A stretch of 64,000 nucleotides of DNA, taken from NCBI RefSeq assembly GCF_035084215.1, contig NC_090340.1:14942001-15006000 (forward strand), written 5' to 3'. Shown here in pieces: positions 6,288 through 64,000 of this stretch; the first letter of the stretch is position 1, and every line of letters begins with the position of its first letter. Under the pieces are notes generated by a model. That model saw only the letters and a list, made by a program, of their open reading frames with translations, was not told the origin of the DNA and made no database searches. Both the position numbers and the translations under genes were made by a program. The stretch comes from Heptranchias perlo. Its lineage: Eukaryota.

Positions 6288-8502
6288 TTTTTTTTTTTTT
6301 ATTCGTTCACGGGATGTGGGCGTCGCTGGCAAGGCCGGCATTTATTGCCCATCCCTAATTGCCCTCGAGAAGGTGGTGGTGAGCCGCCTTCTTGAACCGC
6401 TGCAGTCCCTGTGGTGACGGTTCTCCCACAGTGCTGTTAGGAAGGGAGTTCCAGGATTTTGACCCAGCGACAATGAAGGAACGGCAATATATTTCCAAGT
6501 CGGGATGGTGTGTGACTTGGAGGGGAAGGTGCAGGTGGTGTTGTTCCCATGCGCCTGCTGCCCTTGTCCTTCTAGGTGGTAGAGGTCTGTCGAAGAAGCC
6601 TTGGCGAGTTGCTGCAGTGCATCCTGTGGATGGTGCACACTGAAGCCACAGTGCGCCGGTGGTGAAGGGAGTGAATGTTTAGGGTGGTGGATGGGGTGCC
6701 AATCAAGCGGGCTGCTTTATCTTGGATGGTGTCGAGCTTCTTGAGTGTTGTTGGAGCTGCACTCATCCAGGCAAGTGGAGAGTATTCCATCACACTCCTG
6801 ACTTGTGCCTTGTAGATGGTGGAAAGGCTTTGGGGAGTCAGGAGGTCAGTCACTCGCCGCAGAATACCCAGCCTCTGACCTGCTCTTGTAGCCACAGTAT
6901 TTATATGGCTGGTCCAGTTAAGTTTCTGGTCAATGGTGACCCCCAGGATGTTGATGGTGGGGGATTCGGCGATGGTAATGCCGTTGAATGTCAAGGGGAG
7001 GTGGTTAGACTCTCGCTTGTTGGAGATGGTCATTTCCTGGCACTTATCTGGCGCGAATGTTACTTGCCACTTATCAGCCCAAGCCTGGATGTTGTCCAGG
7101 TCTTGCTGCATGCAGGCTCGGACTGCTTCATTATCTGAGGGGTTGCGAATGGAACTGAACACTGTGCAGTCATCAGCGAACATCCCCATTTCTGACCTTA
7201 TGATGGAGGGAAGGTCATTGATGAAGCAGCTGAAGATGGTTGGGCCTAGGACACTGCCCTGAGGAACTCCTGCAGCAATGTCCTGGGTCTGAGATGATTG
7301 GCCTCCAACAACCACTACCATCTTCCTTTGTGCTAGGTATGACTCCAGCCACTGGAGAGTTTTCCCCCCGATTCCCATTGACTTCAATTTTACTAGGGCT
7401 CCTTGGTGCCACACTCGGTCAAATGCTGCCTTGATGTCAAGGGCAGTCACTCTCACCTCACCTCTGGAATTCAGCTCTTTTGTCCATGTTTGGACCAAGG
7501 CTGTAATGAGGTCTGGAGCCGAGTGGTCCTGGCGGAACCCAAACTGAGCATCGGTGAGCAGGTTATTGGTGAGTAAGTGCCGCTTGATAGCACTGTCGAC
7601 GACACCTTCCATCACTTTGCTGATGATTGAGAGTAGACTGATGGGGCGGTAATTGGCCGGATTGGATTTGTCCTGCTTTTTGTGGACAGGACATACCTGG
7701 GCAATTTTCCACATTGTCGGGTGGATGCCAGTGTTGTAGCTGTACTGGAACAGCTTGGCTAGAGGCGCAGCTAGTTCTGGAGCACAAGTCTTCAGCACTA
7801 CAGCTGGGATGTTGTCAGGGCCCATAGCCTTTGCTGTATCCAGTGCACTCAGCCGTTTCTTGATATCACGTGGAGTGAATCGAATTGGCCGAAGACTGGC
7901 TTCCGTGATGGTGGGGATATCGGGAGGAGGCTGAGATGGATTATCCACTCGGCACTTCTGGCTGAAGATGGTTGCAAACGCTTCAGCCTTGTCTTTTGCA
8001 CTCACGTGCTGGACTCCGCCATCATTGAGAATGGGGATGTTTGCAGAGCCTCCTCCTCCCGTTAGTTGTTTAATTGTCCACCACCATTCACGACTGGATG
8101 TGGCAGGACTGCAGAGCTTTGATCTGATCCGTTGGTTGTGGAATCGCTTAGCTCTGTCTATAGCATGTTGCTTCCATTGTTTAGCATGCATGTCGTCCTG
8201 AGTTGTAGCTTCACCAGGTTGGCACCTCATTTTTAGGTACGCCTGGTGCTGCTCCTGGCATGCTCTTCTACACTCCTCATTGAACCAGGGTTGATCCCCT
8301 GGCTTGTTGGTAATGGTAGAGTGAGGAATATGCCGGGCCATGAGGTTACAGATTGTGCTGGAATACAATTCTGCTGCTGCTGATGGCCCACAGCGCCTCA
8401 TGGATGCCGAGTTTTGAGCTGCTCGATCTGTTCTGAATCTATCCCATTTAGCACGGTTGTAGTGCCACACAACACGTTGGATGGTGTCCTCAGTGCGAAG
8501 AC
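6288..8502 (-). mobile_element. Young 5'-truncated non-LTR retrotransposon (CR1/L2/Jockey-group LINE; clade not resolved) with an open RT ORF
   Basis: ORF 6572-8578 contains [32 protein letters not shown] and FADD. The polyA tail reads as polyT at 6288-6300. The first ~25 aa of the ORF come from flanking DNA, and a ~16-nt deletion near the C-terminus is seen relative to the copy at 55.6 kb. Confidence 0.92.
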
Positions 8503-9229
8503 ATGCACAACATGCTTCGTCATCTATCTCCATCTCATGCTGGACTACATGAAGAACCTGAATCACGTTCTCCAACACCTTCCCCCCCCACCCACCCCCT
8601 CCTCCCCACCTTAGAACTGGATCACGTTTTCCCTCCGCTAGATCCGAATCATGCTCTTGTTATTTTTTACAACACCTTTTGGGCCACATTTGAACGGCAG
8701 CTATTTGACGTCATAGGAAGACCCTTTTTGCAAGTTCTCGCAGTGATGTCATGCAATGCCGTACGCAGGGTGCCGCGCCGAGGGATGTTGTTGGATCAGA
8801 TGAAATCCGTAAATTAATACACAGTGTCACTATTCAATTCAATAATGTAATGTTACTGGAAGTGAGTACAGCAAAATACGGCGAAAACTGTTTGTAATTC
8901 TGGAGCTGCTAAACTTTGATCCTCGTCGCTTGTGACTCTTCCATCTCGTTTCATGCCATCTTCTATTGCCATGTTACTTTCTCTTCGGCCCATGGACAAA
9001 CACCATACCCCTATTCCAAAGGCTACCGATTTGTTCTCTTCAATGCGGCAGTGGAATTTTTTTCAGAAGAAGGCAAGTATTCTAGTCTCATTTTCACTGG
9101 ACCTTGAAAATCAAAATTTGGAATTAAATATTTCAGTATTGGAAATCCTTTGACTTAATTTATGTTTTTATGTTTCATCTACTCACACTGTTTCCATATA
9201 TATATCAGCAACAATATCATGAAAGTAGG

Positions 9230-36032: not shown

Positions 36033-38217
36033 GGGTGCTGTTGAGATCTGGCAACAATGGGGAAGCAAGATCTTGCAACTTTGCAGTGAATTGGGGGCCC
36101 AGAAGAATAGGACCTAAACTGCCTTTGGTCCCTTTTATACCATCAGACCCCAACTTAACACTATCTTCCAGGCTCGCTCCCAAAGGTCCTCTACCATTCG
36201 TCCCGTTGGCAGCCAATCTCTGCCTTAAAGCACCTAACTATAACTTTTCTGCTTCTTGCAATTAATGGGCAGCATGGAGCGGAGGTGACATTTTCACAAT
36301 ATTCTCTTTCAGCCTATGCCAGGCGCACAAGTGTGAAGAGTTTATCCTTTAGTTCATACGCCAGCTTACTAGCCTTGACATTCCACAGCGATACTCCCAG
36401 TCTTTCAGCCATTTGTACCGTTTCTCTAATGTTTTTGCCCGTCTCCTGCCGAAGTAATAGCAGATCAGGATAACGCACACGGAATTTCATGGTACAGTCT
36501 TTCATAAGCATAACATTTTGATTGTGGAAACCACAGTCACAAGGTTGCAAATCACAGAGTCTGTCTCTCACTGGTGTTATCTAAGCAGTTCAAAACAGAG
36601 AACAGCATCTCTTAATAAATGTTGCCACTTTCATGAAATAAATATTTGAGAATTCAATCTTAATTTTATTTCAAAGTCCTTTGGAAAAAGCAAAGACATT
36701 CTGAAATCCTCACGGACTTTCTCGGGAATCAATGGAATATAATTAAGCAAATAATTGGAATGTTTACTCAATATCCATGTCCGTGATTTCAAATATTTTT
36801 TTCTTGTAAGTGGAAAGCCTTGCATCATTCGCAATGTCACATTTATCCGACAGCGTTTGGAATCCCGGCCCCTCTAACGATCTGCAATCATATGCAGCCA
36901 CTCCGGGCTTCACTCAGACGAGTTACAGCTCGCAATGGACTGATATTAAAAGTGACGACGTACGAAGGCAGATTTCACATATCAACTCCTCTAAAATGAA
37001 TATTTCTGCTCTCACTACCGAGATATTCCGACCCATTTATGAGATGATTCTGTGACGATCGCTGCACTTCAAAATGCCTAACGTATTGCTGTTTGCTGAA
37101 ATCGCCAATCGCTGATTCTGAGGCACCGGACAACGCTGCTTTCAGTTTTCAGTGATGCACCAGTTCTTCTCCCTTTGTGTCACCTGGGAACGTCTCGTTC
37201 TCCCTCTGAAGTTTTGTAAAAGAAACAACAGAAAATGTAAAGGTGTGTTTCATTATTTTTAAAAGTGGCATCGCGTCCCAGTGATGATCATAACCATTAG
37301 AAATGCGAATCTAGAAAATACACACCCAGAAACCCTGATGTAAGAAAGCATGCCGCCACAATCTACAAGACGTCAGCATCTAAATCCCGCTCCCGTTGCT
37401 TCTTTGTGAGTGAACAGTCCAAAGCTTGGTGAAATCTGTTTGTGATGTTTATCCAAGGATAAAAAGCGATTTCGCAATAAATCCTTGACTGCCAGAACCT
37501 AATTTTCCCTGTGGCAGCTTTTCAGAAATTTCCTGCGTAAATGCACCTTATGTGTTTTGTTTAACCCATTTTGTAGTCCAGTTCTGATTGAATTGTATGG
37601 AATCCATGGATCAACGCGAGAATCACATTGCTCTTGCATCGCATCACATCGGGAAATATGCAAAACAGGATTTCATCCAATGTCTTGCAGATAACGGCAC
37701 TGTGTATGACATGCGTTCGATAAAGCCTGGTTTAACCCCTTGTGGTCAGTTTCTATCTTTACTGCTTTAAATAATACACTTCCAGTGTCTTGCCGCGTCT
37801 TCCTGCTTCTTTATATTCCCTTACGCCTAAAGGAATGTATTATTGCTTTTAGCCTGAACACATTAGTCTAACGATGTGTCCTTGGAGAAAACGAGAGCAT
37901 GGATTGGGCATTCTGCATAATCTTCGATGCACCATCCTGCATTTGCAGGTAATTGCTAACCCCTACACCCTTGTGGCACAATGACTATGCAGGTTTCGAT
38001 TCATAGGGGATTTTCTTCTGCTTATGAAACCATCGTTTCTGCAGTGGGCTAAAGTTACAAGTATTGAAAGTTCAGTCTGTTACAATCTATTTCCTGAATC
38101 GGCAGCCATATGCCCAACGTCACTGCGACACAATTCGTATTACACAGTCCGCAACCACCTTTACATTACCAAATCCATGCACAGTGCGGGAGCAATCACC
38201 TTACTCCTTTGCTCAGA

Positions 38218-38880
38218 ATGTTGACGAGTTTTGTATTTCTCCTGAAGATCATTTACACAGGTACCTACAATTCTATAACCCAGCTGCCTCGATAAACAAA
38301 AACATGTGAAATGGTTTCCGCTGAATCACCATGAAATTCAAATCTCTCCCAATTTTGCTGATTTCTTTGTTTCATCCTCACGACGTATCTAATAAAATTA
38401 ACCAAACTTTGAATCTATTGCCTCACAGCCGCTTCTAATATTTCGATCAGTCACAACTTCTTGGACACGCGATTAGATTCCGAGGGACACACATCACCTA
38501 CTGTATATTCCACTCAACACAAATTCAGTGAAATTTAGTTAATCTTCGCGATGCTTCTTCACCTCTTACATTTGTAGCTAGAAGTGTGTTCCAAAGTGTT
38601 TGGTTTTGCGTCCAATGCAATTAACCACGGATATTTTCTAACATCTGCGGCGCATACTTCGATCAGAGTGGCTCAAATTCCCGAACATGTGATTGCATTA
38701 AGAGGGACAGACATCGTGTCCTACTGTGTAATCTCCCTCTCTCAGGACAACTCTTGAATAGACGTGTGTTGGTGGAAACAGGTTGAGAATGGACCTGCAA
38801 AGTGTAACGGATAACAGAAAATGATTTGGTCTGAAAGTTAAAGAAGGCGGTTTCTTTCATTTGCTGAACGCGACTTTAAG
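38218..38880 (+). pseudogene. Pseudogene paralog of the VJ-C1 receptor: leader exon (38218-38260) and truncated V exon (38645-~38880)
   Basis: Leader MLTSFVFLLKIIYT-G|gtacct parallels MSASMVFLCLTLRGIIYT-G|gtacct. V remnant reads AAHTSIRVAQIP..YCVISLSQDNS*IDVCWWKQ..FGLKVKEGGFFHLLNAT. The acceptor is mutated (ctaacat), there are stops and a frameshift, and the exon is cut by a CR1. Confidence 0.88.
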
Positions 38881-41155
38881 ATAAGAACATAAGAAATTGG
38901 AGCAGGAGTAGTCTATAAGGTTCGCTCGAGCCTGGTCCGCCATTCAATAAGATCATGGTTGATATTCTACCTCAACTCGACTTTCCCACCCTATCCCCAT
39001 TTCCCCTGATCCCCTTAGTTTACAAATATCCATCGATCTCAGCCTTAAATATACTCAAAGACACAGCATCCACAGTCCTCTGGCAAAGAGCATTCCAGAG
39101 ATTCACAATATTCTAAGTGAAGAAATTTCTCCTCATCTCGGTCCTAAATGGACGACCCCTTATCTTGACACTATGATCTCTAGTTCTAGACTCTCCAGCC
39201 AGGTGAAACAGCCGCTCAGCATCTATCCTGTCAAGCCCTCTAAGAATTTTATACGTTTCAATGAGATCACCTCTCATTCTTCCAAACTCCAGAGAATATA
39301 GGCCCATTCTACTCAATCTATCCTCATAGGACAACCCTTTTGTCCCAGGAATCAATCTGGTGAACCTTCCTTGCACCGTTTCTAAGCAAGGTACATCCTT
39401 ACGTAAGGAGACCAAAACTGTACACAATTCTTCAAATGTGGTCTCACTGGAGCCCGATATAATTGCAAGACTTCCTTACTCTTATACTCCTACCCCCTTC
39501 CAATAACATATTGTTTGCCTTCCTAATTGCTTGATTATCCTACATGTTGACTTTCTGTGATTCATGTACATGGACAGACAAATTCCCATGATTATCAATA
39601 TTTCTGGGTCTGTTTTTCTATTCTTCCTACCAAAGTGGATAATTTCACATTTATCGGCGTCATCCTCCATCTGCCACCTTCTTACGTCCTCCTTGCAGTT
39701 TACTTTCCAACCTAACCTATACATTAGACTCGGTCCCCTCATCTGAGTCATTAATATATATTGTAAACAATTGAGGCCCAAGCACTGATCCCTGTGGCAC
39801 CCCACTAGGTACAACCTGCCAACCTGAAAATTAGCCGTTCATTACTACTCTCTGATTTCTTTCCGTTAGCCAATCCTCAATCCATGCTAATCTGTTGCTC
39901 CCAATCTCATGATCCCTAATCTTGTGGTAACAACCTGTTGAGTGGTATCTTATCAAATGCCTTTTGGAAATCCAATTATTACATCCACTGATTCTCCCTT
40001 ATCTACCCTGCTAGTCACACCCTCAACAGATTCTAACAAATTTGTCAAACACGATTTCCCTTTCACACAACCGTGTTGACTCTGCCTAATCATATTATCA
40101 TTTTCTAAGTACCCTGTTACCACGTCTTTAATAATAGATTCCAGCATATTTCCGACTACTGATATCAGGCTAACTGGCCTATAGTTCCCTGTTTTCTCTC
40201 TCCCTCCTTTCATGAAAAGCGGGGCTACATTTGCCACCTTCCAATCCACGGGGACCATTCCACAATCTTGGGAAATCTGGAAGATCAAAACCAATGTATC
40301 AACTATCTCTGTAGTTACCTTTTTTAAAACCCTAGGATGTAGGCCATCAGGTCCAGGGGATTTGTTGGCTTTTAGTCCCAATAATTTATCCAATACTTTT
40401 TCTTTACTAATCTTAATTATTTTGTGTTCATCACTCTCATTGGACCCTTGTTTTTCCATTATTTCCGGTATGTTTTTTGTGTCTTCTATTGTGAAGACCG
40501 ATGCAAAATATTTGTTTAATGTCTCTGCCATTTCCTTGTTCCCCATTACAATTTCTTCTGTCTCTGCCTCAAAGGGATCCAAGTTTACTTTTGTTAACCT
40601 CTCCCTTTTTACATACTTGTAGAATCTCTTACAATCTATTTTCATATTCCTTGCTAGTTTGCTCTTATATTCAATTTTCTCCCTCTTTATCAATTCCTTG
40701 GTCACCCTTTACTGATTTCCAAAACCCTCCCAATCCTCAGGTTTACTACTATTTTTTGGCAACATTGTGAGCCTCTTCTTTTAATCTAATACTATCCTTA
40801 AATTTTCTAGTTAGCGACGGTTGGATCACTTTTCCCATGGGATTTTTATTTCTTAAGGGAATGTATACTTATTGAGAATTATGAATTATTGCTTTAAATG
40901 TTCGTCATTGCTTATATACCATCATATCTTTTAATGTCATGTCACAATCTACCTTATTCAACTTGCCCCTCATACCGATGTAAAAGGCTTTGTTTAAATT
41001 TAAGACCCGAGTTTCAGACTTAACCAGATCATTCTCGAACTCAATATGAAGTTCTGTTATATCATGACCACGCTCCCCCAGAGGATCCTTAACTATATGA
41101 TTGCTAATTAAACTTGTCTTATTACACAATACTAGATCTAAAATAGCCTGTGCCC
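38881..41155 (-). mobile_element. CR1 LINE (3' tail to mid-endonuclease) truncating the V pseudo-exon
   Basis: ORF 39953-40705 contains KSPGPDGLHPRVLK and NYRPVSL. The tail taagaacataagaa is at 38882. Confidence 0.9.
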
Positions 41156-42055: not shown

Positions 42056-42110
42056 ATGTCGGCGAGTATGGTGTTTCTGTGCTTGACGCTCCGGGGGATT
42101 ATTTACACAG
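42056..42110 (+). CDS. Exon 1, leader peptide MSASMVFLCLTLRGIIYT
   Basis: ATG at 42056, donor ACAG|gtacct, phase 1. Confidence 0.85.
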
Positions 42111-45100
42111 GTACCTCTTTATTCACAAGAACAGCTACTTTAATTTATAAAATGTTTCCGAAGTAATTTCCACATAAACGAAGTGAAAGTAATTCCTCTC
42201 TCTCGATTCATTTTCTCTCTCTTCCATCTCCATGTCGTATCCAATAAAACTAACCCGTACTTGACTAAATTTTCTGACAGCTGCGGACCACAGTTCGTTC
42301 AGAGTGACTCAAACGCCCAAACAGGCGACTGTATCCATAGGGGGAAATATCACCTTCTACTGCATATTCCCCATCTCTCAAACCCATTCCTGGGTAAGAG
42401 TGTATTGGTCGAAACAGGGTGAGGATGAATACCTGCACAGAAGGGGCGATAAGAGAAAACGATTTGGTCTGGAAGGTAAAGCGAGCGGTTTCTTTCAGTT
42501 ACGGAACGCGACTTTCCAAGACTCTGGAGTCTATCACTGCGCAGTGATCCGACAGGGAACAGTTGGAGAAGATGGAAACGGATCGCATCTAATTGTGCAT
42601 GGCAAGTGTGAAACACCGGAGAGCGGGACTGTCGTAAACATATCAAACATAACAAACGGGAATTTTTTTGTGATTTGCTTTATTGTACAGTTTCTGACAG
42701 TATAAACATTTCTATGAACACTTTTTGCGAGATAGATAAGTTTTATGTTCGTGTTCTCTGCATAGAACTGCCAATTAGGTAGTACAATATAACCCTCCAC
42801 ACGCAGGGTACTGTAAAATGTATCAATGTTAAGCAATTGGACTGTAACTCCAAATAAATTTATACACCAGAGGTTTGATAGCGGAATTTCGGAAAAAAAA
42901 TTCAAGCTGAATGAAAATTGTTTATATTAATGCGCTTTCCCCACTATAGACACGGTTGTTAGCCCATTTTGGCTGCTCTGTCTGCCCCCATCGCTGCCTC
43001 TGGGGTTTGACATTCTTGAAATTAATTCTCACATGATGATTGGCTCGTTAGCGTCACGGATTTGAAAGCCAGCGTCCAACTAACTGTTGATCAACCGATT
43101 CACTCAACAAAGTGGAGCTCGGAATTCACAACGTTGTCACCTCACTAACCTCCAATAATTACAATAATACGCAGGAACTGTGTTGCTGAAATCTCCTGAT
43201 ATAGTTTCTTTCACCAATCGTCATGCTTCGGCTGTGAGATCTGTCCGATACCGACTAATGCCCTGGTTTTATCATCGGCAATGTGTAGATTACTCGATTA
43301 CTCGTCACTGTCTAACTGAGTAAAAAAATGGAGGACTGGGCGCGCCAACTTTACCCAGGGTTTATTTCTTTAATTCTTTGGACTATGAAACGCGACATTG
43401 ATTAGCGATTGTTGCGACGTGTCTGCCGTGTAACTCAAAGTTTTGGACTCGATGGTGCATGTAAAATTGAACAGATACCGGTGACGATGAATGATATGGA
43501 TGAGGTGTGTGTTGACGATGTGCCGAACTTTAACAGGACAGGCGGCCGTGTTTTGGAATGGTGCTGTTTTAATAAAATGGACCGAAGGTAAAGAATCATA
43601 TTTAATTTCTCCCAATGGTGCCAAGTAACTCGACTTTGTTCATTGTCTGTTCCGCAGCTCCCCCAACTCCACTGAAGATTGCCTCCAGGACAGCTGAGGG
43701 GAATCCATCTGCGTCTCTGACTCTTGTGTGTGAAACGGCAAAGTTTTTTCCGGAGAATTTCACCCTCGCTTGGTGTAAAAACGGCGTTGTAATTGCAACA
43801 GGAATAAATACCATTAAACGGCAGAACACTGAGGGGCTGTATGAAGTTTCCAGCTCTTTGGAAGAGACGCAGCCTGTCCCGATCGGCGCCAATTATACCT
43901 GTTTGGTATCTCATATCTCCCTCCAGACTCCTGCTGTTGTGACCTATACTGTTACGAAATCTAAACAAGGTACGAGGCCAACAGTCCAAAAGGGCAGTTA
44001 AAATCGCAAACAGCTATTTCGTAGAATTTGTACATATTGAAAATCATGAAGATAGTTCACGGGAAACTCATGGGAAATATCAACGAATACATAAAATTCT
44101 TGTTTTATTGTATAATATAATTGAACTCGATGTGTTGTAAAACACGGTTATATCGTCCGGTACACAAATATTCTCAGTCAAATCTTATTTGCCTTCAACT
44201 TCCTCTATTTCAGGAATAACAAATATAAACAGGAGTTTATCTTTTGTATCCCATTATATTTCCTCTCCTGCTTATTATTAATACTTTTACGGTTTTTTTT
44301 TCTATGTTAAACTGGTTTTATTCTTTACCACTGCCGGCTTTCCCTGTATCAGGACAATTACCAGGAGCTGCAGTGGACGTGTTTGCTCTTTGGCTTCTTC
44401 CAATGCAGTTCTCAATCCTGTGAACCCCCCTTCCCCTTCCGGCTACGTCTGGTGCACAGTTCTGAACTGAAATCTCTGTCCAACTTCTACCCCACATCTC
44501 TTCATGCCACAGCGGGTTCGATTGGGACCTCTCTCATAAATCTCATGTAAACTGTACCCTCAACTTGGTTACAGTGCAGCCGGTTCACTATATCATTTGA
44601 TTAACAATTCTTAGCTTTGCCAGACAATAATTAATAAACCGTCGCCCGTTGATCTCCTTTACTCGTCAATGACATTTTTACTTTAATAAATACAGTGCGG
44701 ATAATTGAATGAGGGTTATTAACCAATTGCTGCAATCCCGAATTTTGTTCGGGCAGCGAGTAAACCCGTGAGAACAAATTCCCCCCACCGATTTTCTCAA
44801 ACTATATGTTAATGAATAAGAATGGTCAAGGACATGGACAAGTCATTCGGTCCAGGGAAATTTATCCCCTTCATTTTCTAATTTTCCTAAAACATTGTTT
44901 TGTGATCCCTAAACGGTAGTCACCTTCGCAGATTAATCCAGAACGTCTCATCTATTCGATGAAGGAGTTACTTCAAATGTTATATCTAAAAAAATAACGT
45001 TTTTTTATTTACACTTTCTTATTTTTGTTCTGTACAGCGGAATGACTGAAAGCATCAATAGTTTAACCAATACACTATCGTGCGGCCTCTTTTTAGCAAA

Positions 45101-46730
45101 CGCCCGTCACAACTTAATGTTCCTATTAATCTTACAGCTAGTGTCATTTACTTCTGGGCTCTTGGGTGTGCGATGGGTGGATTGGCGTTTCTCGTGCTGA
45201 TGATCGTCATTGGGAAGCGGTGCCGTCTGCAGAATAAAGAAGGTAAGATCTACTGTAAAAGCTTGATTTTAGACGAAACCTCAGGGTGAGAGTCTCCGGG
45301 TAACAGAGAGGAAGCAGAACTCGATTTTAACTTAAAGTTGAAGGCAATGGTTTCTGTTTTCAGGGAGCGCAGATTGTTCCAACTACACGTTAAAACGCAG
45401 AAATCCTCACATAATTGTATTAAAATTTGCGATCATTATCTGGATGTTTGCAACAGAAATTGACAATATACAGCAAGTGATAAATTAACTGTATCCTGGC
45501 ACACAGTCACTTTCCAACCCATTACTTTGTAGGTGCGTAATGAGTTTGAGTGAAACCGTGTGAGGCCCCGGTCCTGGAATGGTTGTGCACCGTTGTTAAT
45601 CGCTACAGGGGTTGGGATTCAAACATTGTCAGCACAAACTGAAATTGAAAATTATGTTCGCTTTCTACCGAATCTAGAAATTTCTTTGATATCGCTGAAT
45701 GGAAACTGAGTAAATTTGTCAATCTTTCAATTTAATTTAATTGGTTTGCAGGTGAAGAGGGGCGTGTAATGGGACCGACCCGCCATGAAGAGCTGGTACG
45801 TTCATTCATTCATGCTCTGCAGAGGGTTCAAATGTGAAGAAAGATTGCTTTCATGGAGAGATGTTATCACAATCATGTCAGTACGTTAGGTGGCGGACAA
45901 GAAAACTGCCAGTTTCGTTTAAAATGTACCTATGTTTTAACGGTTTATAGATTAATCTATTCCTTTAATTTGAAAAAATTACTTTTATGTTCTAAAGCGG
46001 CCTTTCATTCAAACATTTCTGTAACACAGTGTTGTAGAGCGTATACTGACAGGTTTAAATATTAGTTATAGTGACCACAGCACTCATTGGTCTCAATATT
46101 CTTACTTATGCCAATATATTAATTATGCTTTGTGCACTTGATCTCTAGCCCAGGTCATTCTGCTCAATGTTTGGTAAGCAGTTCTTAACCTGGTGAAGGC
46201 AATGAACTAGGTACGTAATCAATCATTTGCTTTGTGGCCCATGCAGGGAACAGAGGCTGAGATCGTGCATTATGCTGCATTAGATTTGAGCAAAGCCAGG
46301 AAAACTCCAAGACGTAAAGATGAAGAGGAGAGGACCGTGTACGCTCAGGTAGGGATGAGTAACAGATCAGAGAAACATAGATCATGAGTGTAACACCAAC
46401 ATTCATGCGATAGTGGAGTATTTCGGGTTGTGCTGACTTTGATCGTGTGATGTATCTAAAGCTATTTGTGTATTATGCTGATGACTGTTTAGAGCAGCAG
46501 TCCACAAAACTTGCAAAACGACCAATCAACAATATTTCCAAACATTGGCTTTACAGAACAAACAAGGGGCAGCCCGTGACAAGCTGACATACGCAACGCT
46601 AGCATTGACTGGCTCAGGGAAAAGGGCGCAATACAAAAATGACGAAAGAAGCACCGACTATGCCGAGCTACAAACGCAAAACCAAAGAAGAGTAACAGAG
46701 GCTGTTTACTCCGAAGCAAGAATCAAATAG
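42056..46730 (+). CDS. Ig-superfamily inhibitory receptor, germline VJ-type V + C1 + TM + ITIM/ITSM tail (SIRP-like), 7 exons, ~370 aa
   Basis: Exons 42056-42110, 42281-42601, 43658-43969, 45138-45242, 45752-45795, 46247-46348 and 46557-46730 join in one open frame (1113 nt) with intron phases 1,1,1,1,0,0. Confidence 0.88.
42281..42601 (+). CDS. Exon 2, V-set domain with J-like G strand
   Basis: VTQTP..ITFYC..VYW..DSGVYHC..GNGSHLIVH. Acceptor tttctgacag, donor G|gcaagt (GC). Confidence 0.9.
43658..43969 (+). CDS. Exon 3, C1-set domain
   Basis: LTLVCETAKFFPENFTLAW..GLYEVSSSL..YTCLVSHISL. Acceptor ttccgcag, donor CAAG|gtacga. Confidence 0.92.
45138..45242 (+). CDS. Exon 4, transmembrane
   Basis: SVIYFWALGCAMGGLAFLVLMIVIG-KRCR with no charged TM residue. 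Acceptor cttacag, donor G|gtaaga. Confidence 0.88.
45752..45795 (+). CDS. Exon 5, cytoplasmic spacer GEEGRVMGPTRHEEL
   Basis: Acceptor tttgcag, donor CTG|gtacgt. Converts phase 1 to phase 0 as required. Confidence 0.75.
46247..46348 (+). CDS. Exon 6, cytoplasmic, ITIM VHYAAL and TVYAQ (missed by the ORF track)
   Basis: GTEAEIVHYAALDLSKARKTPRRKDEEERTVYAQ. Acceptor atgcag, donor CAG|gtaggg, phase 0/0. Confidence 0.82.
46557..46730 (+). CDS. Exon 7, cytoplasmic, ITIM LTYATL, TDYAEL, AVYSEA, stop
   Basis: Acceptor ctttacag, TAG at 46728-46730. Confidence 0.85.
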   Translation, partial: NKQGAARDKLTYATLALTGSGKRAQYKNDERSTDYAELQTQNQRRVTEAVYSEARIK

Positions 46731-52369: not shown

Positions 52370-53220
52370 TGTCATGTTTAAGCTGTGAGATCTGTCCGAT
52401 ACCTACTAATGCCCTATTTTTATTGTCGATAATGTGTAGATTACTCGTCACTGTCTATCTGTATGTATCAACCGTGGAAAAACTAGGCGCGTCATCTTTC
52501 CCCAGTGTTCAATCATTGAATTCTTATTGGAATATGTAGCGCAGATATTTATCAGAAATGATGTAATGGGTCTGTTTGAAAATTGCGATTAAAGTTGAAT
52601 AATTTAAAGGATTGGGCTCAATAATAACACAAGGTATACCACAGGTGTAATTGAACAGAGGCCTTAGCCATGAGTGATATTGGTGAGGTTTGCGTAGATG
52701 ACGTGTGTAACATTAAAAAGACAGGTTAATGGCTTTCTAATGGTGCTGCTACAATAAAATAGTTCGAAGATAAATCTAAATGATGTTTGGTATCTCCCAA
52801 TGCTACTCAGTAATCAGATTTTGTTCCATTCTCTGTTCCGCAACTGCACCAACCGCGCTGAAGATTCTCTCCAGGACATCTGTATCTCTGACTTGTGTGT
52901 GAAACGGCTGAGGTCTATCCGAGAAATTCCACCCTCCCTCGGTATGAAAATGGCGTAGTAACTGCGATAGGAATACAAAACATTCAATGGCAGATAACTG
53001 AAGTGCTGTATGACGTTTCCTGCTCTTTGGAAGAGACGCAGCCTGTGCCGAGCGGTGCCAGTTACACCTGTTTGGTATCTCACATGCCGCTCGAGACTCC
53101 ACCTGTGGTCATCTACACGGTTACCAATTCTAACACAGGTACGAGGCCAACAGTCCAAGAAGGAGAGCCAGCTACTGTTAAATTCTTAAACAGATATTTC
53201 ATAAAGTTCGCTCATATTAA
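52370..53220 (+). pseudogene. Pseudogene paralog of the receptor: distal V-C1 intron homolog and C1 exon (52844-53138)
   Basis: Colinear with 43220-44040. Acceptor mutated (ttccgcaa), 2-nt deletion before the first Cys, W->R in the C strand. LEETQPVPSGASYTCLVSH and the donor are retained. Confidence 0.9.
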
Positions 53221-55304: not shown

Positions 55305-57518
55305 TATTGCAAAATTTCATTTTTCCACGTTCTAAGCTGATATACATTGAATATTTTATTTATTCGTTCACGGGATGTGGGCGTCGCCGGCGAGGCCAGC
55401 ATTTATTGCCCATCCCTAATTGCCCTTGAGAAGCTGGTGGTGAGCCGCCTTCTTGAACCGCTGCAGTCCGTGTGGTGACGGTTCTCCCCCAGTGCTGTTC
55501 GGAAGGGAGTTCCAGAATTTTGACCCAGCGACAATGAAGGAACAGCGATATATTTCCAAGTCGGGATGGTGTGTGACTTGGAGGGGAACGTGCAGGTGGT
55601 GTTGTTCCCATGTGCCTGCTGCTCTTTTCCTTCTAGATGATAGAGGTCGCGGGTTTGGCAGGTGCTGTCGAAGAAGCCTTGGCGAGTTGCTGCAGTGCAT
55701 TCTGTGGATGGTACACACTGTAGCCACAGTTCGCCGGTGGTGAAAGGAGTGAATGTTTAGGGTGGTGGATGGGGTGCCAATCAAGCGGGCTGCTTTATCT
55801 TGGATGGTGTCGAGCTTCTTGAGTGTTGTTGGAGCTACACTCATCCAAGCAAGTGGAGAGTGTTCCATCACACTCCTGACTTGTGCCTTGGAGATGGTTG
55901 AAAGGCTTTGGGGAGTCAGGAGGTGAGTCACTCGCCGCAGAATACCCAGCCTCTGACCTGCTGTCGTTGCCACAGTATTTATATGGCTGGTCCAGTTAAG
56001 TTTCTGGTCAATGGTGACCCCCAGGATGTTGATGGTGCGGGATTCGGCGATGGTAATGCCGTTGAATGTCAAGGGGAGGTGGTTAGACTCTCTCTTGTTG
56101 GAGATAGTCATTGCCTGGCACTTATCTGGCGCGAATGTTACTTGCCACTTATTAGCCCAAGCCTGGATGTTGTCCAGGTCTTGCTGCATGCGGGCTCGGA
56201 CTGCTTCATTATTTGAGGGGTTGCGAATGGAACTGAACAATGTGCAGTCATCAGCGAACATTTCCATTTCTGACCTTGTGATGGAGGGAAGGTCATTGAT
56301 GAAGCAGCTGAAGATGGTTGGGCCTCGGACACTGCCCTGACGAACTCAATGTCCTCAATGTCCCAGCAGTGTCCTGGGGCTGAGATGATTGGCCTCCAAC
56401 AACCACTACCATCTTCCTTTGTGCTAGGTATGACTCCAGCCATTGGAGAGTTTTCCCCCTGATTCCCATTGACTTCAATTTTACTTGGGCTCCTTGGTGC
56501 CACACACAGTCAAACGCTGCCTTGATGTCAAGGGCAGTCACTCTCACCTCACCTCTGGAATTCAGCTCTTTCGTCCATGTTTGGACCATGTTTGGACCAT
56601 TGAATATGACAAGTGTTAACGCACATAAAATCGCAACTGCAGCAGCATGTGATAAAATCCTGACCCATGGATGTATTTGAACATTAGATTCCCAATGCCA
56701 AAACTTATCCCAGAACCCGGGGTCCCGTAGCAGTTCATCTGCTTTATCAGCATGAGTTTTAATTATTTTAGTTTGTTTCGTCCATTGATGAATTATCTCT
56801 TTGGCTTCCTCCGCTATTTGCGTCCAATCTGCAGTCAGGTGTGGAATGGGTGGTAGTTCGGGAGGAACATATTTCCGCAGATCTTGGTCTATATCTTTAC
56901 GTTGGACTGTGAGGTTTTCGTTTATTACCATCCTCTTTATTGGCTTAGGCAGAACTTGTCCACCGACAACCAGGTCTGCGGTCACATTGTGTCCTTCCAG
57001 AGGGCACTGTTTCCATCCTTTATTATAGTTCATAGCCGCTGTGGCTATGTAATACGTTTGTCCCACAAGGGAGTATTGTCACTACCCCAGTCAATATTTA
57101 CATCGGTGTGGTCCCAGTGGACCACAATTTTACCTCGACCGTCGCTCCCCGATTGTCGCTCCATAAATGGACCCACAAATTGATTGATGAATTTTCCCTC
57201 TGGGATTACCGACTATGTCACCTCTAGAACTATGTTACATGAAAACTGTACTGCCACTCCCTCCGGTATACCCAAAGTCTTTCCCACGCACGCTAACCCA
57301 TCCACTCCCGTATAATACAAATTTAAATCCTCTCTTTTCCCTTTGTTGTTTCGGACTGTCTTATTCTGCAGAGTAAAGTTGTCCCTGGTCTCGGGATATC
57401 CCTCCTTCATCGACACTGCTTCAGGCACGTTCATTCGGCGTGACGGCTCTGAGGCAGTTTCAACCGCAGTTCTGATGATGGTCAATCCGATAGCAACAAA
57501 ATGCATTATCCCCTTCAT
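55305..57518 (-). pseudogene. env: env-like glycoprotein gene, internally deleted and LINE-interrupted
   Basis: Splice acceptor ttgtttattacag| at 57531 just before the ATG (57518). Signal-like MKGIMHFVAIGLTII, heptad-like segment, Trp-rich FWDKFWHW, TM ILSHAAAVAILCALTLVIF, and tail NVYQLRTWKNEILQ after the LINE. Confidence 0.7.
55355..56597 (-). mobile_element. 5'-truncated LINE (family of 6288-8502) inserted at the end of the env TM segment
   Basis: 10-bp TSD CATTGAATAT (55345-55354 and 56598-56607) and an FADD-containing ORF at 55416-56267. Confidence 0.92.
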
Positions 57519-57579
57519 TCTAGGCTGGACCTGTAATAAACAAGTGTAATTTCTGCTCTTATTTACTGTTTCTTTTAAG

Positions 57580-60295
57580 TACTATCATAAGTCCAGTCTC
57601 TCCATATACTGAGCCAGACCGTCCATATCCTGTTCCCAATTTGTTTCAGATTCTGACCGTCCATTTCTTCTAATCCACTTATTCCCTCTTTTTGTTTTAT
57701 GTTCCTTTCGTTTTTTTCCTGGATTCGCTTCTGCATGGGAACGGACAGTATCAAATTTGTTTTCAATCACCTCCTCATCGGCCTGTAGCTGGTCCTGTTC
57801 TTGATCTCCCTGACCTTCAGAATTAGGTTTTTTAATTCTCCGTCTTTCTTTTGCTCCTCCGTTAAATCCATTTCTTTGACCTGCTTCTCTTTCTGGCCCC
57901 CGATTTCCCCAACCGGTGGCTGCCATTCCTGTCCACGTACAGCACCTCGTTTGGCTAGTTCATCAGCTTTACTGTTCCCTTTGGGGGAGAGTTTTGAATG
58001 AGCTTTCACTTTTGTGACCCCATATCCTTACCCCTGTGCTTCTTCAAAGATGTACCGTAATAGCGGGGCTGATGGAAGGGGCCTTCCATCCACTGAGACA
58101 AATCCCCTCACTTCCCATCGGGGCAAATGTTCTGTGAGGCTATTACAAACATACATGCTATCAGAATATATGACTGATCTGGGCGGAAAATTTCCGGGTG
58201 ACCAACCACATATGCGACGGCTGCTAGTTCTGCTATCTGCGCACTCATCGTGTTAGGTAATTTCAGAGCCGCACTAAAGCTTTCCTGTCCGTGGTCATAC
58301 TCCATGTGTTTCCCACAGCCAGTTCTCCTTTCCCCATCCTGTACTGATGAAGAGCCATCCTCAAAAATGTAAAAATAGGGTTCTTCCTTTCCTGTTTCCT
58401 TTGTCTTTCTGCTTTCAGGCCCCGTCTTACCCCCACCCTTTTGTTTTGATACAAATGGGCCCTTGGGCTCATTTGCTATCATTAATTGACACTCATGTTT
58501 TTCTCCCTGATAAACTAAGTTGTCTGCTGACATAGTAGTGGTTTTTACCCCCTTTACAGTTATATTTCTCCCTTGCAGCAACAATGTCCATCTAGCGATT
58601 CTATTTTGGCTAACTGAACCATCCTTAATCCTTCCATCTAACAGTAGCTGTACTGGGGTGTGTTCTGTTAATACTGTAAGTGGGTTTAGTCCCACTATAT
58701 AGGTAAAATGCTGCACTGCCCAAAAGACAGCTAGCAAGTGCCTTTCGCATAATGTATACCCCTGCTCTACTGGTGAGAGCATACGTGAGGCGTACGCTAC
58801 TGGTCGTAATTTTCCGTGTGTCTCCTGTAATAGAACTGCCGAGAGGGTGGTGTCTGTGGTAGCCACCTCCAATGAAAATGGCTCCGTTGGATTTGGGGGT
58901 TTTAGAGCAGGCGCAGCAGCTTGTACTTGCTTTAGATCAGTCATGGCCTGGGTGTGTTTTGTTTTCCACTCCCAGGCCACATTCTTTTTTAATAATTCCA
59001 TCAGCGGGCCGCCTTTGTGGCAAATCCATCAATATGGTCCCTGCAATATCCCACCAACCCCAAGAAGGGCCTTAACCCTTTAACATCCCGCGGCACAGGG
59101 ATTCTGCCAACCGTCTCTACCCTTCGCTTTTCAATGTCCCTTTGTTCCGGCGTCCGAATCATTCCCATGTAAGTAACTTTTTGTTTCATGGTCTTCGCTT
59201 CTTTAGGGTTAATCTTTAATCCCAAGTCATGTAACTACTGCAGTAATTGACTTAGCAGTTGATAATGTTTCTTCTTGGTTTCAGTTTGTAGGAGGCCTCG
59301 AGAATCCTTTTAACCCTTCCCTCAGCCATTGGTGAAATATGGACGGGGAATTGTGAAACCCCTGCGGCAGGGCAGTCCATGTACATTGCTGTCCTTGGAA
59401 AGTAAATGAGAATTTATATTGACATTCCTTCTCCAGTGGAATAGTCCAAAAACCGTTACTTATGTCCAAAACCGTAAACCACTGTGCATCCTCATTTTGT
59501 CGAACTACTGTCTCTGGGCTAGTTGCTACAGTAGGAGCTGTTAGCTGGTGACTTTATTTAATTCTCTGTAGTCTATCGTTAGTCGCCAGCTACCGTCGGG
59601 TTTCCTCACTGGCAAAATAGGTGAGTTATTAGTAGAAGCTATTGGTCTTAATATCCCTTGCTGCAGCAGACTCTGTATCACCTTCTCTATCTCTTCTTCT
59701 GCTTGCTTTGGGAAACCATACTGCTTCTGTGGTTTGGGGTCTGGACCTTGTACACACACTCCCGGTCATTTTCCCACAATCATGTTTATGTCGGGCAATT
59801 ACTATTGAGTTTTGTACAATAATTTGTTGTACTTCACGATAGTTACTCATTTCTCCTGGTTCTATCCACATTTCCCCGATCGCGCATATACTATCCTGAT
59901 ATTCCCCCATCGGGACGAATGTGTGATTCATACTGCCCATGCCCAAAGGCATTTGCCAAATCATACAATTAACAGGGTCGAAGCAAAATCCCGCTTTGGC
60001 CAAAAAGCCACTCCCTAATATATGTTCTTGTTCTCTAGGTAATTTAATAAGGACCACTGAATGCTCTATTACTATGTCTCCCACTCACTTGTGAATGCCC
60101 TGTGAATCCGCTTCGAATAATTTTGTTTTGAATTTTCCAATCTTTGTCATTGATCTGAGTGGTGTTAACGGTGGTTCGGGATCCCCCTGTGTCCCAAAGG
60201 AATGTAAGAGGGCGGCCTCCGACCCTACCATTCACTAGGGGTCTCCCCGTGTCATCCAACTGCAGGTCACACACCCATAACGGAGAGGGCTGAGA
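57580..60295 (-). pseudogene. pol: pro-pol remnant: protease, RT (YxDD deleted), degenerate RNase H/tether, second RNase H, integrase largely deleted
   Basis: FLWDTGGSRT; NSPILPVRKPDGSWRLTIDYRELN; FTFQGQQCTWTALPQGFHNSP; RPVAYASRMLS..CERHLLA; IFEDGSS..SAQIAELAAV..YSDS..KAHS..GNSKADELAK. Confidence 0.9.
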
Positions 60296-60298
60296 CCG

Positions 60299-62064
60299 TC
60301 ACTGCAGTTCGGGGTACAACCCGGAACTTGGTGATATTGCTATCGTATCACACTGAGGACTTGGTCTATTCAGCCCTTCCACGGGTAGGCTCTGATTTCT
60401 TCCCCGACCTGCATTCTCTCGTCTCGGGTTTGGGCAGTCTCTTGCGAAGTGTCCCTCTTGGCCACAGTTATAGCATTTGGACACCTCGCCTTGAGTTCTC
60501 CCCGTTCCCGAGGAGTTTCCTCTTCCTCTGCCTCTACCTCTTCCCACTGTCTGATAAGCTGGAGGGGGTCCCCCTGAGTAGGTCCCCTCCCTTCATTTCT
60601 CCAGGTTATCGTCTGATCTTTAACAGGCATTGCTCTGTCCCCGGATGCCTTGGATCGTTTTGGTATTTCCCTTTCCCATACTCTAACCATCTTCCTACTT
60701 ATCCAGGGTTCCGTATGTGTGTCATCAGCGGATTCAAACTGATCTAGTGCCCTCCTCGACTCCTCAGTGCCATGCGACACTAGTGTTCTCAGCCATCGGT
60801 TCCTAACCTCCTGCTGTAAATTGTTCCTGTCTAAGTATGTGCCATAGACCACCTGAAACACCGCCCAAATGCGGGCTGAAAATACAGTGGGGTGTTCACC
60901 TTTTCTTTGATAGCATTTCATTAGCGCCTCCACTGGATCCCCTCTGTTATCGCCCATGACAGATAATACCTGGTCCTTTAAGGCCTCATTCGTGCTTCTA
61001 CCAAGTTTTTGTTCCTCCGGGATGGCGGAGTGTATATGTGGGTGTAGGCACATTAGGATTAATTTTCTTTCCTCAGCATCGTCTAAGCCGTGTATCGCTC
61101 TCTGTTGCCTGACTGCTAGGAATAACTCCCTAGGATCATCCCCAGGCGCACACATTCCAATATCTTTTGCAATAACCCTCAGTTCTTGTACCCCAAGTGG
61201 GGTGGAATATGTCATATCCTGGCCATCTTCCCCCATCTGTGCTCTAGTGGTTACAAGGGGGGCCATTGGGGCAGACGGTTTTTTTGGCTCTGGAATATGC
61301 TGGCGGTGGGTCCCCTCGTGGAGGTTCCCCATCAGTGCTGCTGTATCTATCCGCCTCGTCTGCTAAATCGTCCCAATCTACATCCCCTTGACCACTTTCT
61401 TCACCTCTTCCGGGTGTGAAAGCGCACAATATGCTCCTCTGTGCGGCTAGCTGATCTTGCAGCCTCCCTATCAGTTTCTGAAACTTTGTGTGATCGCCGG
61501 TACTACTCCTCTTCTCCTGAGCTGATCTGTGAATCACATTCATGCAGTTTTTAAATCACTACATTGTTGTTTCCATCTCTCCACCTCAGCTTTAGCTGCT
61601 TGGGCTTCTCCCTCTCTCTTACTCTTTTCATTCGTCAATTTTTCGCACTGTAACTGATATTGGTTCATGTGCATCAAATCTGCACTTCTCTGTTCATGTA
61701 GATCAGTTACCTTCTTACTAAGGCGGTCTATCTCCTAACGGAATTTTTTATTCTCTTCCCCTAATCCGTCTCGGATTTTCTGTTGTTCCTCCCTCTCTCT
61801 CCTAGCCTGTTGTCGGCATTCTATCCATTCGTCAAGTAAACATCCGATTGCTACGGACTTCTGTATCTTTTAAAATTTCCTATCTGACATCTTTGTTTGC
61901 GCAATTCTCCAAAGGACCTCCCCAACAGGCGTTCCCTTGTCTCCAATGTGACCCGCATACTCCCCGTATTGCAGCCACTTCCCTATTACGTATTTTTGGA
62001 GGAGTCCCTTCCAGTCAAAACAGTCCAAGACCCCAGGGCTTGGAGATTTCCCTTTATTCGTCAT
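60299..62064 (-). pseudogene. gag: gag remnant with coiled-coil region and one CCHC knuckle
   Basis: CYNCGQEGHFARDC, capsid-like ORF 60370-61332, and an E/K/Q/R-rich helix at ~61430-61830. Frameshifts and stops are present. Confidence 0.85.
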
Positions 62065-63122: not shown

Positions 63123-63689
63123 CCGACTCTTTATTTTCTGTTAGTTAGCCAATCCTCTATCCTTGCCAGTAAATTACACCCAACACCATGAGCTCTTATC
63201 TTTTGCAGTAATCATTATGTGGCACCTTATCGAATGCCTTTTGGAAATCCAAATATACTGCATCCATTGGTTCCCCTTCCTCAAAGAACTCTAATAAATT
63301 TGTCAGACATGATTTCCCCTTCATAAAACCATGTGGACTCTCTTGATTGTTTACGAGTCTCCAAATGTCCTGCTACTACTTCCTTAATAATGGATTCTAG
63401 CATTTTCCCAATGACAGATGTTAGGCGAACTGGTCTATAGTTACTTGCTTTCTGTCTCACTCCCTTCTTGAATAGGGCTGTTACGTTTGCGGTTTTCCAA
63501 TCCACTGGGACGTTTCCAGAATCAATGAATTTTGGAAGATTACAACCAATGCATCCACTATCTCTGTAGCCACTTCCTTTAAGACCCTCGGATGCAAGCC
63601 ATCAGGTCCAGGAGAATTGTTAGCCTTTAGACCCATTAGTTTACCTGGTTTTTTTTCTCTAGTGATAATGACAGTGATAGTAACAATCA

Positions 63690-64000
63690 TTAAGATAGTT
63701 CACGGAAAACTCCTGGAAAATATCAACAAAAACATAAAATTCATATTTTAATGTGAAATATAATTGAGAACCGATAGTAAAACCTGAAGTTATATCATCC
63801 GCTGCACAAATATTCTCAGCCAAACCTTATTTGCCTTCAAATTCCTGTATTTGATGTAAAAGCAAGAGGTTTATCTTTGTTATCTGATTATATTCCATAT
63901 TGTGCTTAATATTAATCACTTTATTTTTTGTTCCCATCATCAAATGGTTTTATTCGTTATTATTATCTAGCTTTCCTACAACACAACGATTACCAAGAGC
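63690..64000 (+). pseudogene. Continuation of the pseudogene's C1-TM intron homolog
   Basis: aagatagttcacggaaaactcctggaaaatatcaac matches 44048-44085 and stays colinear to ~44365. Confidence 0.85.

What the first reader, a model, noticed from the sequence alone, without database searches (positions are those of the whole stretch)
42056..46730. Non-rearranging antigen-receptor-like VJ-C1 receptor with a SIRP-alpha-like inhibitory tail
Seen: one exon encodes V plus a J-like strand (YHC..GNGSHLIVH) with no RSS, followed by a true C1 domain, an uncharged TM and five cytoplasmic tyrosine motifs (VHYAAL, TVYAQ, LTYATL, TDYAEL, AVYSEA). The C1 carries an extra Cys (AWCKNG). Known: C1-set domains are largely confined to Ig, TCR, MHC, tapasin and SIRP, and SIRP-alpha has alternating ITIM/ITSM motifs but is V-C1-C1. 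Inference: this is a light-chain/TCR-shaped innate inhibitory receptor of the kind proposed to resemble the pre-RAG antigen-receptor ancestor, possibly from a poorly described shark family.
Basis: partly seen in the sequence, partly recalled or inferred. Interest (0 to 1): 0.75.

Follow-up and report, generated by a model that had tools for sequence, protein, structure and literature searches.

The report
Shark inhibitory VJ-C1 paired immune receptor
This shark gene encodes a predicted cell-surface protein shaped like one antibody chain but lacking rearrangement signals, with a tail that likely switches immune cells off; it is one of dozens of look-alike genes, some likely switching cells on, in a little-described receptor family of sharks, rays and chimaeras.

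Summary
The gene is real: seven exons, 370 aa, with leader, single-exon VJ, C1, uncharged TM and a tyrosine tail, and no RSS. Contigs from one sample show introns 3-6 spliced. The V-C1 intron is GC-AG with weaker support, and the discriminating contigs match a 99.76% twin 300 kb away.

Corrections: only three of the five motifs fit ITIM/ITSM consensus, and the extra Cys is private to this copy and its twin.

It is an inhibitory-type member of a clustered family of about 80 V-C1 pairs on one chromosome. Some paralogues have an Arg in the TM, one with a 99% identical V. The family spans chimaera, sharks and rays. It lies beside NUDT21-AMFR-BBS2, away from the SIRP-marker, NCR3/UrIg and Ig/TCR loci. 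Its V is short and lacks the F/W-GxG J motif, and trees cannot place it. It likely works like SIRP-alpha but fails SIRP membership; the pre-RAG-ancestor link is unsupported. Lead: turtle tandem-VJ paired receptors are the best outside V match.

The scan found this family earlier on other windows of this genome.

The parts
42056..42110 (+). Exon 1, leader peptide; GT donor, phase 1
   Evidence: same N-terminus as paralogue model P0001; not covered by the laid contigs
42281..42601 (+). Exon 2, single-exon short V domain with J-like G strand; GC donor; no RSS
   Evidence: model pLDDT 89
42602..43657 (+). Intron 2, GC-AG
   Evidence: joint seen in one contig with only 28 letters on the V side, under the tool's bar of 31
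43658..43969 (+). Exon 3, C1-set domain with private Tyr-to-Cys change
45138..45242 (+). Exon 4, uncharged transmembrane helix with GxxxG and Cys
   Evidence: spliced joints
45752..45795 (+). Exon 5, cytoplasmic spacer
46247..46348 (+). Exon 6, ITIM (Y288) plus degenerate ITSM-like site (Y311), 23 residues apart
46557..46730 (+). Exon 7, ITIM (Y325) plus ITSM (Y348), 23 residues apart, further Y339 and Y364, stop
38629..38881 (+). Broken V-exon relic of the same family (stops, frame change)
52886..53140 (+). Broken C1-exon relic of the same family

Best explanation
The gene encodes a leader-VJ-C1-TM protein with ITIM and ITSM motifs and no recombination signals, one of a clustered cartilaginous-fish family in which other members carry a transmembrane arginine, and it likely acts as the inhibitory half of a paired innate immune receptor system. 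Inferred steps: the V domain binds a self or microbial ligand (unknown); Src-family kinases phosphorylate Y288, Y325 and Y348; the tandem SH2 domains of SHP-1/SHP-2 dock on the ITIM/ITSM pair 23 residues apart and damp activation. Arg-TM paralogues with near-identical V domains would couple to an FcR-gamma/CD3-zeta-type adaptor and activate, as a counter to pathogens that exploit the inhibitory form. It works like SIRP-alpha or LILRB but is its own lineage at its own locus.
For: Shown: intact 370-aa frame and domains. Spliced joints for introns 3-6 with 40 or more letters on the short side. 91 of 93 V matches and 105 of 105 C1 matches on contig C18; 82 of 89 V entries have a C1 within 15 kb downstream (2 off-chromosome rows and 2 split fragments dropped, one C1 used twice, duplicated blocks included). 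Of 60 fetched 10-kb stretches (60 of the 82 pairs), 7 have an Arg...DH TM, 6 an SGFR-type Arg TM, 2 a Gln variant, 8 a strict ITIM+ITSM last exon, and 37 are unclassified by these motifs. The copy at L003/L048 has a V 99% identical to this one and an Arg-type TM exon. 34 of 81 TM-bearing database members carry two or more ITIM/ITSM-like motifs. 59 of 60 profile hits are named from chimaera, sharks or rays, 1 unnamed. The family is one side of a starred branch in V (98/99) and C1 (100/100) trees. A zeta/FcR-gamma-family TM exon exists in the genome. Known principle: Arg-TM receptors pair with FcR-gamma, and SIRP-alpha signals through SHP-1/2 (PMC3533184, passages).
Against: No ligand, cell type, phosphorylation or phosphatase binding was tested. 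The runs are one sample, contigs only, and RNA by guess. Spliced contigs across the C1-TM joint carry the twin's base, not this copy's. This copy has a GC donor, Trp-to-Ser in the V C strand and a free Cys, so it may be weakened. dN/dS near 1 among close copies holds for C1 as well as V and rests on few changes, so diversifying selection is not shown. Two of the five quoted motifs are off-consensus.
Confidence: 0.7

Rival explanations
1. The family is the cartilaginous-fish branch of the SIRP family (one C1 fewer, moved locus), and this gene is a SIRP-alpha co-orthologue that reads CD47 or a like self marker.
For: Family profile against PDB: SIRP-alpha first at 90.9 bits. Two ITIM-ITSM-type pairs in the tail. 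Many members are auto-named SIRP-like. AU tests do not reject family+SIRP-like (V p 0.32, C1 p 0.45). No V or C1 hit in 190 kb around the p47/SEP-FAM110 locus on C22, so no other SIRP candidate was found there.
Against: SIRP-alpha's lead is a tie with UrIg2 (90.6) and IgA (88.4), and summed scores favour multi-domain chains. Per domain the lizard SIRP-like protein scores low: V 21-28 bits against 42-61 for turtle VJ and 39-46 for NCR3-like; C1 37-38 against up to 63. One C1 instead of two (PMC12975943, passages). The flanks are NUDT21-AMFR-BBS2 on the FTO chromosome, not the NSFL1C block (human positions recalled). Only one SIRP-like protein was in the trees.
Confidence: 0.2
2. The family is a surviving sister of the VJ-C1 gene that the RAG transposon split, a membrane-bound counterpart of UrIg.
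For: VJ in one exon followed by C1 is the layout proposed for the precursor (PMC12227049 and PMC10751288, passages). The C1 tree leans to the Ig/TCR/UrIg side (90/72). AU does not reject V family+AgR+UrIg (p 0.33). UrIg2 is the top PDB hit of the C1 exon alone. The family predates the chimaera-shark split.
Against: Short V, no F/W-GxG, no post-C1 Cys. The free V tree separates it from AgR+UrIg (94/87). None of the best 150 V-set or C1-set matches lies on C18; Ig, TCR, UrIg-like and NCR3-like genes are on other contigs. The literature candidates are tied to the MHC or the Ig/TCR complex.
Confidence: 0.1
3. This particular copy is a decaying or weakly expressed recent duplicate, or an uncollapsed haplotype of the twin 300 kb upstream; the function rests with the twin and with GT-donor paralogues.
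For: 99.76% identity to the twin over 10 kb; the neighbouring gene pair is 99.8% identical, and a second block of about 0.5 Mb is 99.7-99.9% duplicated. Spliced contigs match the twin with 0 differences. GC donor, W-to-S, Y-to-C and a shortened TM exon. The public model P0007 lacks leader and V. Relics surround the gene.
Against: The frame is intact and all other splice sites are canonical. The oddities are shared with the twin, for which a V-C1-TM contig exists. One intronic contig matches this copy's base, not the twin's. Contigs drop rare variants.
Confidence: 0.25

Closest known systems
SIRP family (SIRP-alpha inhibitory, SIRP-beta activating)
   Same: V plus C1 ectodomain without rearrangement; tail with paired tyrosine motifs; charged-TM activating relatives; ties for best PDB profile match.
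   Different: One C1, not two; shorter V; dozens of genes; different flanking genes; low per-domain scores; Arg near the outer face of the TM rather than SIRP-beta's DAP12-binding Lys (Lys recalled).
UrIg/UrIg2 and PRARP/VJC1-type non-rearranging VJ-C1 genes
   Same: Single-exon VJ followed by C1, no RSS.
   Different: UrIg is a secreted homodimer with three or more C1 domains, linked to the MHC or the Ig/TCR complex. This is a membrane receptor with a signalling tail, multigene, on another chromosome, with a V about 15 residues shorter between the cysteines.
Teleost NITRs
   Same: Clustered, diversified VJ-type receptors with activating and inhibitory forms (PMC7916673, passages).
   Different: NITR second domain is I-type, not C1 (recalled); the NITR-like goby protein does not group with the family (label inferred).
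NKp30/NCR3 and B7-H6
   Same: NCR3: single-exon VJ with a GxGT strand, second-best outside V score. B7-H6: V-C1 ectodomain, top fold match Z 15.7, rmsd 2.9, 193 aligned, tied within 1 with 9lme and 4of8.
   Different: NCR3 has no C1, and the NCR3-like genes here are on C42. B7-H6 is a ligand, and B7-H6-like V domains form a separate branch (label inferred).
Turtle tandem-VJ proteins (auto-named FcRL5/pIgR/titin-like; P0143, P0193, P0109)
   Same: Best outside V scores (42-61 bits; hhalign probability 97.7); short V; NGTG strand; an Arg-TM pattern shared with shark members; a tyrosine-tailed form too.
   Different: Four to six V domains, no C1; locus unknown; the tree neither shows nor rejects the grouping (p 0.47); picked by the same profile search.

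Membership tests
Paired IgSF immune receptors | Clustered genes with similar ectodomains and either ITIM tails or charged TMs | tested here: met
Paired IgSF immune receptors | Opposite signalling through SHP-1/2 versus an ITAM adaptor | not testable with these tools
   needs cell assays; an adaptor-family exon is present
SIRP | V plus two C1 domains | tested here: not met
   one C1; definition from PMC12975943
SIRP | ITIM-bearing tail in the inhibitory member | tested here: met
   2 ITIM + 1 ITSM by consensus
SIRP | Locus beside NSFL1C (human 20p13, recalled) | tested here: not met
   SEP matches on C22 and C3, none on C18; cluster flanked by NUDT21, AMFR, BBS2
SIRP | V and C1 group with SIRP in trees | tested here: inconclusive
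   not grouped in free trees; AU p 0.32 and 0.45; one lizard SIRP-like protein only
SIRP | CD47 binding | not testable with these tools
   CD47 Pfam search gave no match and was flagged uninformative
Rearranging Ig/TCR | V and J split, with RSS | tested here: not met
   no RSS in the gene; 1 loose hit in 45 family V exons, at the exon start, against 17 of 30 control V loci
Rearranging Ig/TCR | F/W-G-x-G J motif and full-length V | tested here: not met
   N 24, D 2, K 1, S 1 before GxG; Cys spacing 54-59
Rearranging Ig/TCR | C1-set constant domain | tested here: met
UrIg-type non-rearranging VJ-C1 | Single-exon VJ followed by C1 | tested here: met
UrIg-type non-rearranging VJ-C1 | Secreted, three or more C1 domains, linked to MHC or Ig/TCR complex | tested here: not met
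   TM and tail, one C1, contig C18; many Ig/MHC contigs are unplaced, so linkage is judged on placed ones
NCR3/NKp30 | VJ directly followed by a charged TM, no C1, MHC-linked | tested here: not met
   C1 present and TM uncharged; NCR3-like genes on C42
NITR | Second domain of I-type with extra cysteines (recalled) | tested here: not met
   second domain scores as C1-set

The most novel reading that the evidence does not exclude
This is the main germline-encoded recognition repertoire of shark NK-like or myeloid cells: an old jawed-vertebrate lineage of short-VJ paired receptors, independent of SIRP, that kept an antigen-receptor-type C1 in cartilaginous fish and survives without C1 as tandem-VJ paired receptors in turtles. 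It would be a second VJ-C1 lineage, outside the MHC paralogons, close to the substrate of the RAG insertion.
Probability: 0.2. Interest if true: 0.8.

Novelty: new variant of a known kind. Interest (0 to 1): 0.52.

Why it matters
Few innate or NK-type receptor families are known in cartilaginous fish (own knowledge). A family of dozens of VJ-C1 receptors with on and off forms, kept from chimaera to rays, is a concrete candidate for that layer of recognition. It comes with a defined locus (beside NUDT21-AMFR-BBS2) and a natural test pair whose V domains are 99% identical but whose membrane ends are opposite. It also shows that the VJ-C1 layout was used for innate signalling. The principle of paired receptors is well known, members sit in public databases under automatic names, and this one copy is an ordinary, possibly weakened member.

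Tried and rejected
Homodimer prediction of paralogue P0001 residues 20-262: no verdict (score 0.11, alignment not used); not evidence either way. Fold searches do not discriminate: Foldseek lists light chains for V-C1 and NCAM/VNAR/PD-L1 for V; VIA rows for V are tied at Z 13-14 (NCAM, VNAR, NKp30); SIRP was not listed, which excludes nothing. V-only and C1-only profiles against PDB were swamped by multi-domain chains. The Atlas search gave generic Ig clusters. CD47 and MHC class II beta searches of the genome gave no match and are uninformative. No proteasome-subunit match on C18. No run was on record as RNA. Exon 1 and intron 1 were not covered by contigs. The extra Cys as an interchain bridge was rejected as a family trait. 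Read-through of intron 2 gives a V with a hydrophobic end, but the open frame is shorter in the nearest paralogue, so I treat it as chance. One search's tail search printed nothing through a script error and was redone; one search crashed part-way and was finished. The crude Arg class was not used; tighter motifs were. Literature: ten searches and a term search of the one held supplement of PMC3964593 found no description of this family. Ohta 2019, Flajnik 2023 and a shark NCR3 paper were not held, and they or other subscription papers and their supplements may mention it.
Full report
Observation. Seven exons join in frame to 370 aa: leader, V with J-like strand in one exon, C1, uncharged TM, and three tail exons. 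Pfam confirms V-set and C1-set above cut-off. No RSS lies in the gene. The same loose RSS pattern hits 1 of 45 family V exons, at the exon start, and 17 of 30 control V loci. By consensus the tail holds two ITIMs (Y288, Y325) and one ITSM (Y348); Y311 and Y364 are off-consensus. Exons 6 and 7 each carry a tyrosine pair 23 residues apart, which suggests a duplicated ITIM-ITSM cassette (inference). The V-exon donor is GC (1 of 45 distinct V sequences) and the extra Cys occurs in 1 of 54 distinct C1 sequences; both are shared only with a twin copy.

Transcription. Three runs from one sample and one study, kept as contigs and RNA only by guess, show GT-AG joints for introns 3-6. The V-C1 joint that needs the GC donor is in one contig of depth 4.9 with 28 letters on the V side, below the tool's 31-letter bar; a second V-C1 contig has 23 differences and belongs to a paralogue. 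A twin 299,915 bases upstream is 99.76% identical over 10 kb and differs at one exonic base, 43963. Laid on the twin, the spliced contigs across the C1-TM joint have no difference; on the window they have one. One intronic contig matches the window's base. So the model is supported for the pair, but spliced mRNA from this copy is not shown. The public model P0007 matches the twin's C1 and tail and lacks leader and V, probably because of the GC donor (inference).

Family. The window lies at G000:C18:14.94-15.01 Mb. 91 of 93 V matches and all 105 C1 matches are on C18, nearly all in two clusters (2.7-6.0 and 14.5-15.65 Mb) (lower bounds). 82 of 89 V entries have a C1 downstream. This count includes broken copies and blocks duplicated at 99.7-99.9%, which may be haplotypes. 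I fetched 60 of the 82. By motif, 7 have an Arg...DH TM, 6 an SGFR-type Arg TM, 2 a Gln variant and 8 a strict ITIM+ITSM last exon; 37 stay unclassified, many of them with uncharged Gly-rich TMs. The nearest non-twin copy (L003/L048) has a 99% identical V, a GT donor and an Arg-type TM exon: the signature of a receptor pair. Homologues: 59 of 60 profile hits are named from chimaera, sharks or rays; the closest are from the sevengill shark. Automatic names vary (SIRP-like, tapasin-like, B7-H6-like, light-chain-like). 34 of 81 TM-bearing members have two or more tyrosine motifs.

Place. Downstream of the cluster lie exons matching NUDIX_2, RING/G2BR and five BBS2 families, read as NUDT21, AMFR and BBS2 (150 selected frames). 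Upstream lies a double helix-hairpin-helix exon, EEPD1-like (name recalled). FTO is on the same contig. These are human 16q12-13 genes (recalled). SEP/p47 matches are on C22, next to a FAM110 gene, and on C3; 190 kb around the C22 one gave no V or C1 hit with family or generic profiles. None of the best 150 Pfam V-set or C1-set matches is on C18; Ig, TCR, UrIg-like and NCR3-like genes are on other contigs.

Relationships. A full HMMER search of 1.84 billion representatives (30 of the best 150 looked up by name) returned family members, long multi-Ig proteins, and a few informative outsiders. Against the family V profile the best outsiders are turtle tandem-VJ proteins (42-61 bits), then shark NCR3-like V (39-46); a lizard SIRP-like protein scores 21-28. 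Against the C1 profile, B7-H6-like and Ig domains reach 53-63 and SIRP-like 37-38. Outgroup labels: NCR3-like was tested against PDB; SIRP-like rests on likeness to the SIRP-alpha stretch printed; UrIg-, B7-H6-, NITR-, Ig- and TCR-like are my inference from layout, RSS and recall. The family V is short (Cys spacing 54-59; turtle 61, SIRP-like 64, Ig/TCR/NCR3/UrIg-like 69-74) and has N, D, K or S, never F/W, before GxG. Careful trees (52 of 95 V rows; 56 C1 rows) give a starred family branch on a long stem. V falls away from antigen receptors and SIRP (94/87); C1 falls on the Ig/TCR side (90/72); neither is starred. AU tests reject none of five groupings: SIRP-like (V 0.32, C1 0.45), antigen receptors plus UrIg (0.33), turtle (0.47), NCR3-like (0.27). 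Folds are confident but fold matches are ties. The turtle proteins have the same short V, an NGTG strand, a tyrosine-tailed form and an Arg-TM form that fits the pattern drawn from shark members; they were picked by this profile, so this is a lead.

Mechanism. Shown: architecture, motifs, clustering, opposite TM types, partial splicing. From established knowledge (PMC3533184 and PMC12975943, passages): ITIM receptors recruit SHP-1/2, and Arg-TM receptors pair with FcR-gamma. Inferred: ligand binding by V, phosphorylation, SHP docking and inhibition, with Arg-TM paralogues as activating counterparts; a zeta/FcR-gamma-family exon is present. dN/dS near 1 among six close copies, in both domains and on few changes, does not establish positive selection.

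Literature. I saw passages of PMC12227049, PMC10751288, PMC7916673, PMC12975943 and PMC3533184, and a term search of one supplement of PMC3964593; other papers only as search listings. Non-rearranging VJ-C1 genes (UrIg, UrIg2, PRARP, tetrapod VJC1) are known, and the favoured precursor candidates are tied to the MHC or the Ig/TCR complex. Ten searches found no description of this family; three key papers were not held. Earlier notes of this scan describe the same family on other windows of this genome; they are not independent support.

Verdict. A real inhibitory-type member of a large, apparently undescribed cartilaginous-fish family of VJ-C1 paired receptors. It likely works like SIRP-alpha, is not filed as SIRP, and is not shown to be near the pre-RAG ancestor. 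New variant of a known kind; interest 0.52.

Noticed in passing
G000:C18 14.68-14.76 versus 14.98-15.06 Mb, and 3.49-4.02 versus 4.28-4.85 Mb: Two blocks duplicated at 99.7-99.9% identity with offsets close to 300 kb and 800 kb; recent segmental duplications or uncollapsed haplotypes.
   Followed up: partly
P0143, P0146, P0193, P0109: Turtle receptors with four to six tandem short VJ domains, in Arg-TM and tyrosine-tailed forms, under misleading automatic names.
   Followed up: partly
L179 (G000:C11:54.37 Mb): Another single-exon VJ followed by a C1 exon, unrelated to this family, about 2 Mb from the zeta/FcR-gamma-family exon; may be a PRARP/VJC1-type gene (recalled name).
   Followed up: no
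L142, L144, L149, L150, L154, L157, L168, L170 (G000:C8 1.2-1.95 Mb): A cluster of non-rearranging VJ exons, some tandem, that group with Ig/UrIg V domains in the tree (96/76, unstarred); closer to antigen receptors than the family studied here.
   Followed up: no
window 37268-37327 (-), 9026-9109 (-), 63677-64000 (+): Further family debris: a weak TM-exon relic, a tail-exon match to P0047, and sequence like intron 3 at the window end.
   Followed up: no
P0097, P0136, P0138, P0160, P0163, P0166: Database models of the family with V but no C1 match; exon skipping, V-only genes or annotation gaps.
   Followed up: no
window 6572-8659 (-), 55416-61366: Long open frames; those near 7000-7600 and 56100-56200 match reverse-transcriptase-like text, likely LINE repeats.
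   Followed up: no
L056 (G000:C18:19.02-19.03 Mb) and L054: A divergent single family member 3.4 Mb beyond the cluster, with a Cys-rich juxtamembrane segment like that of L054.
   Followed up: no
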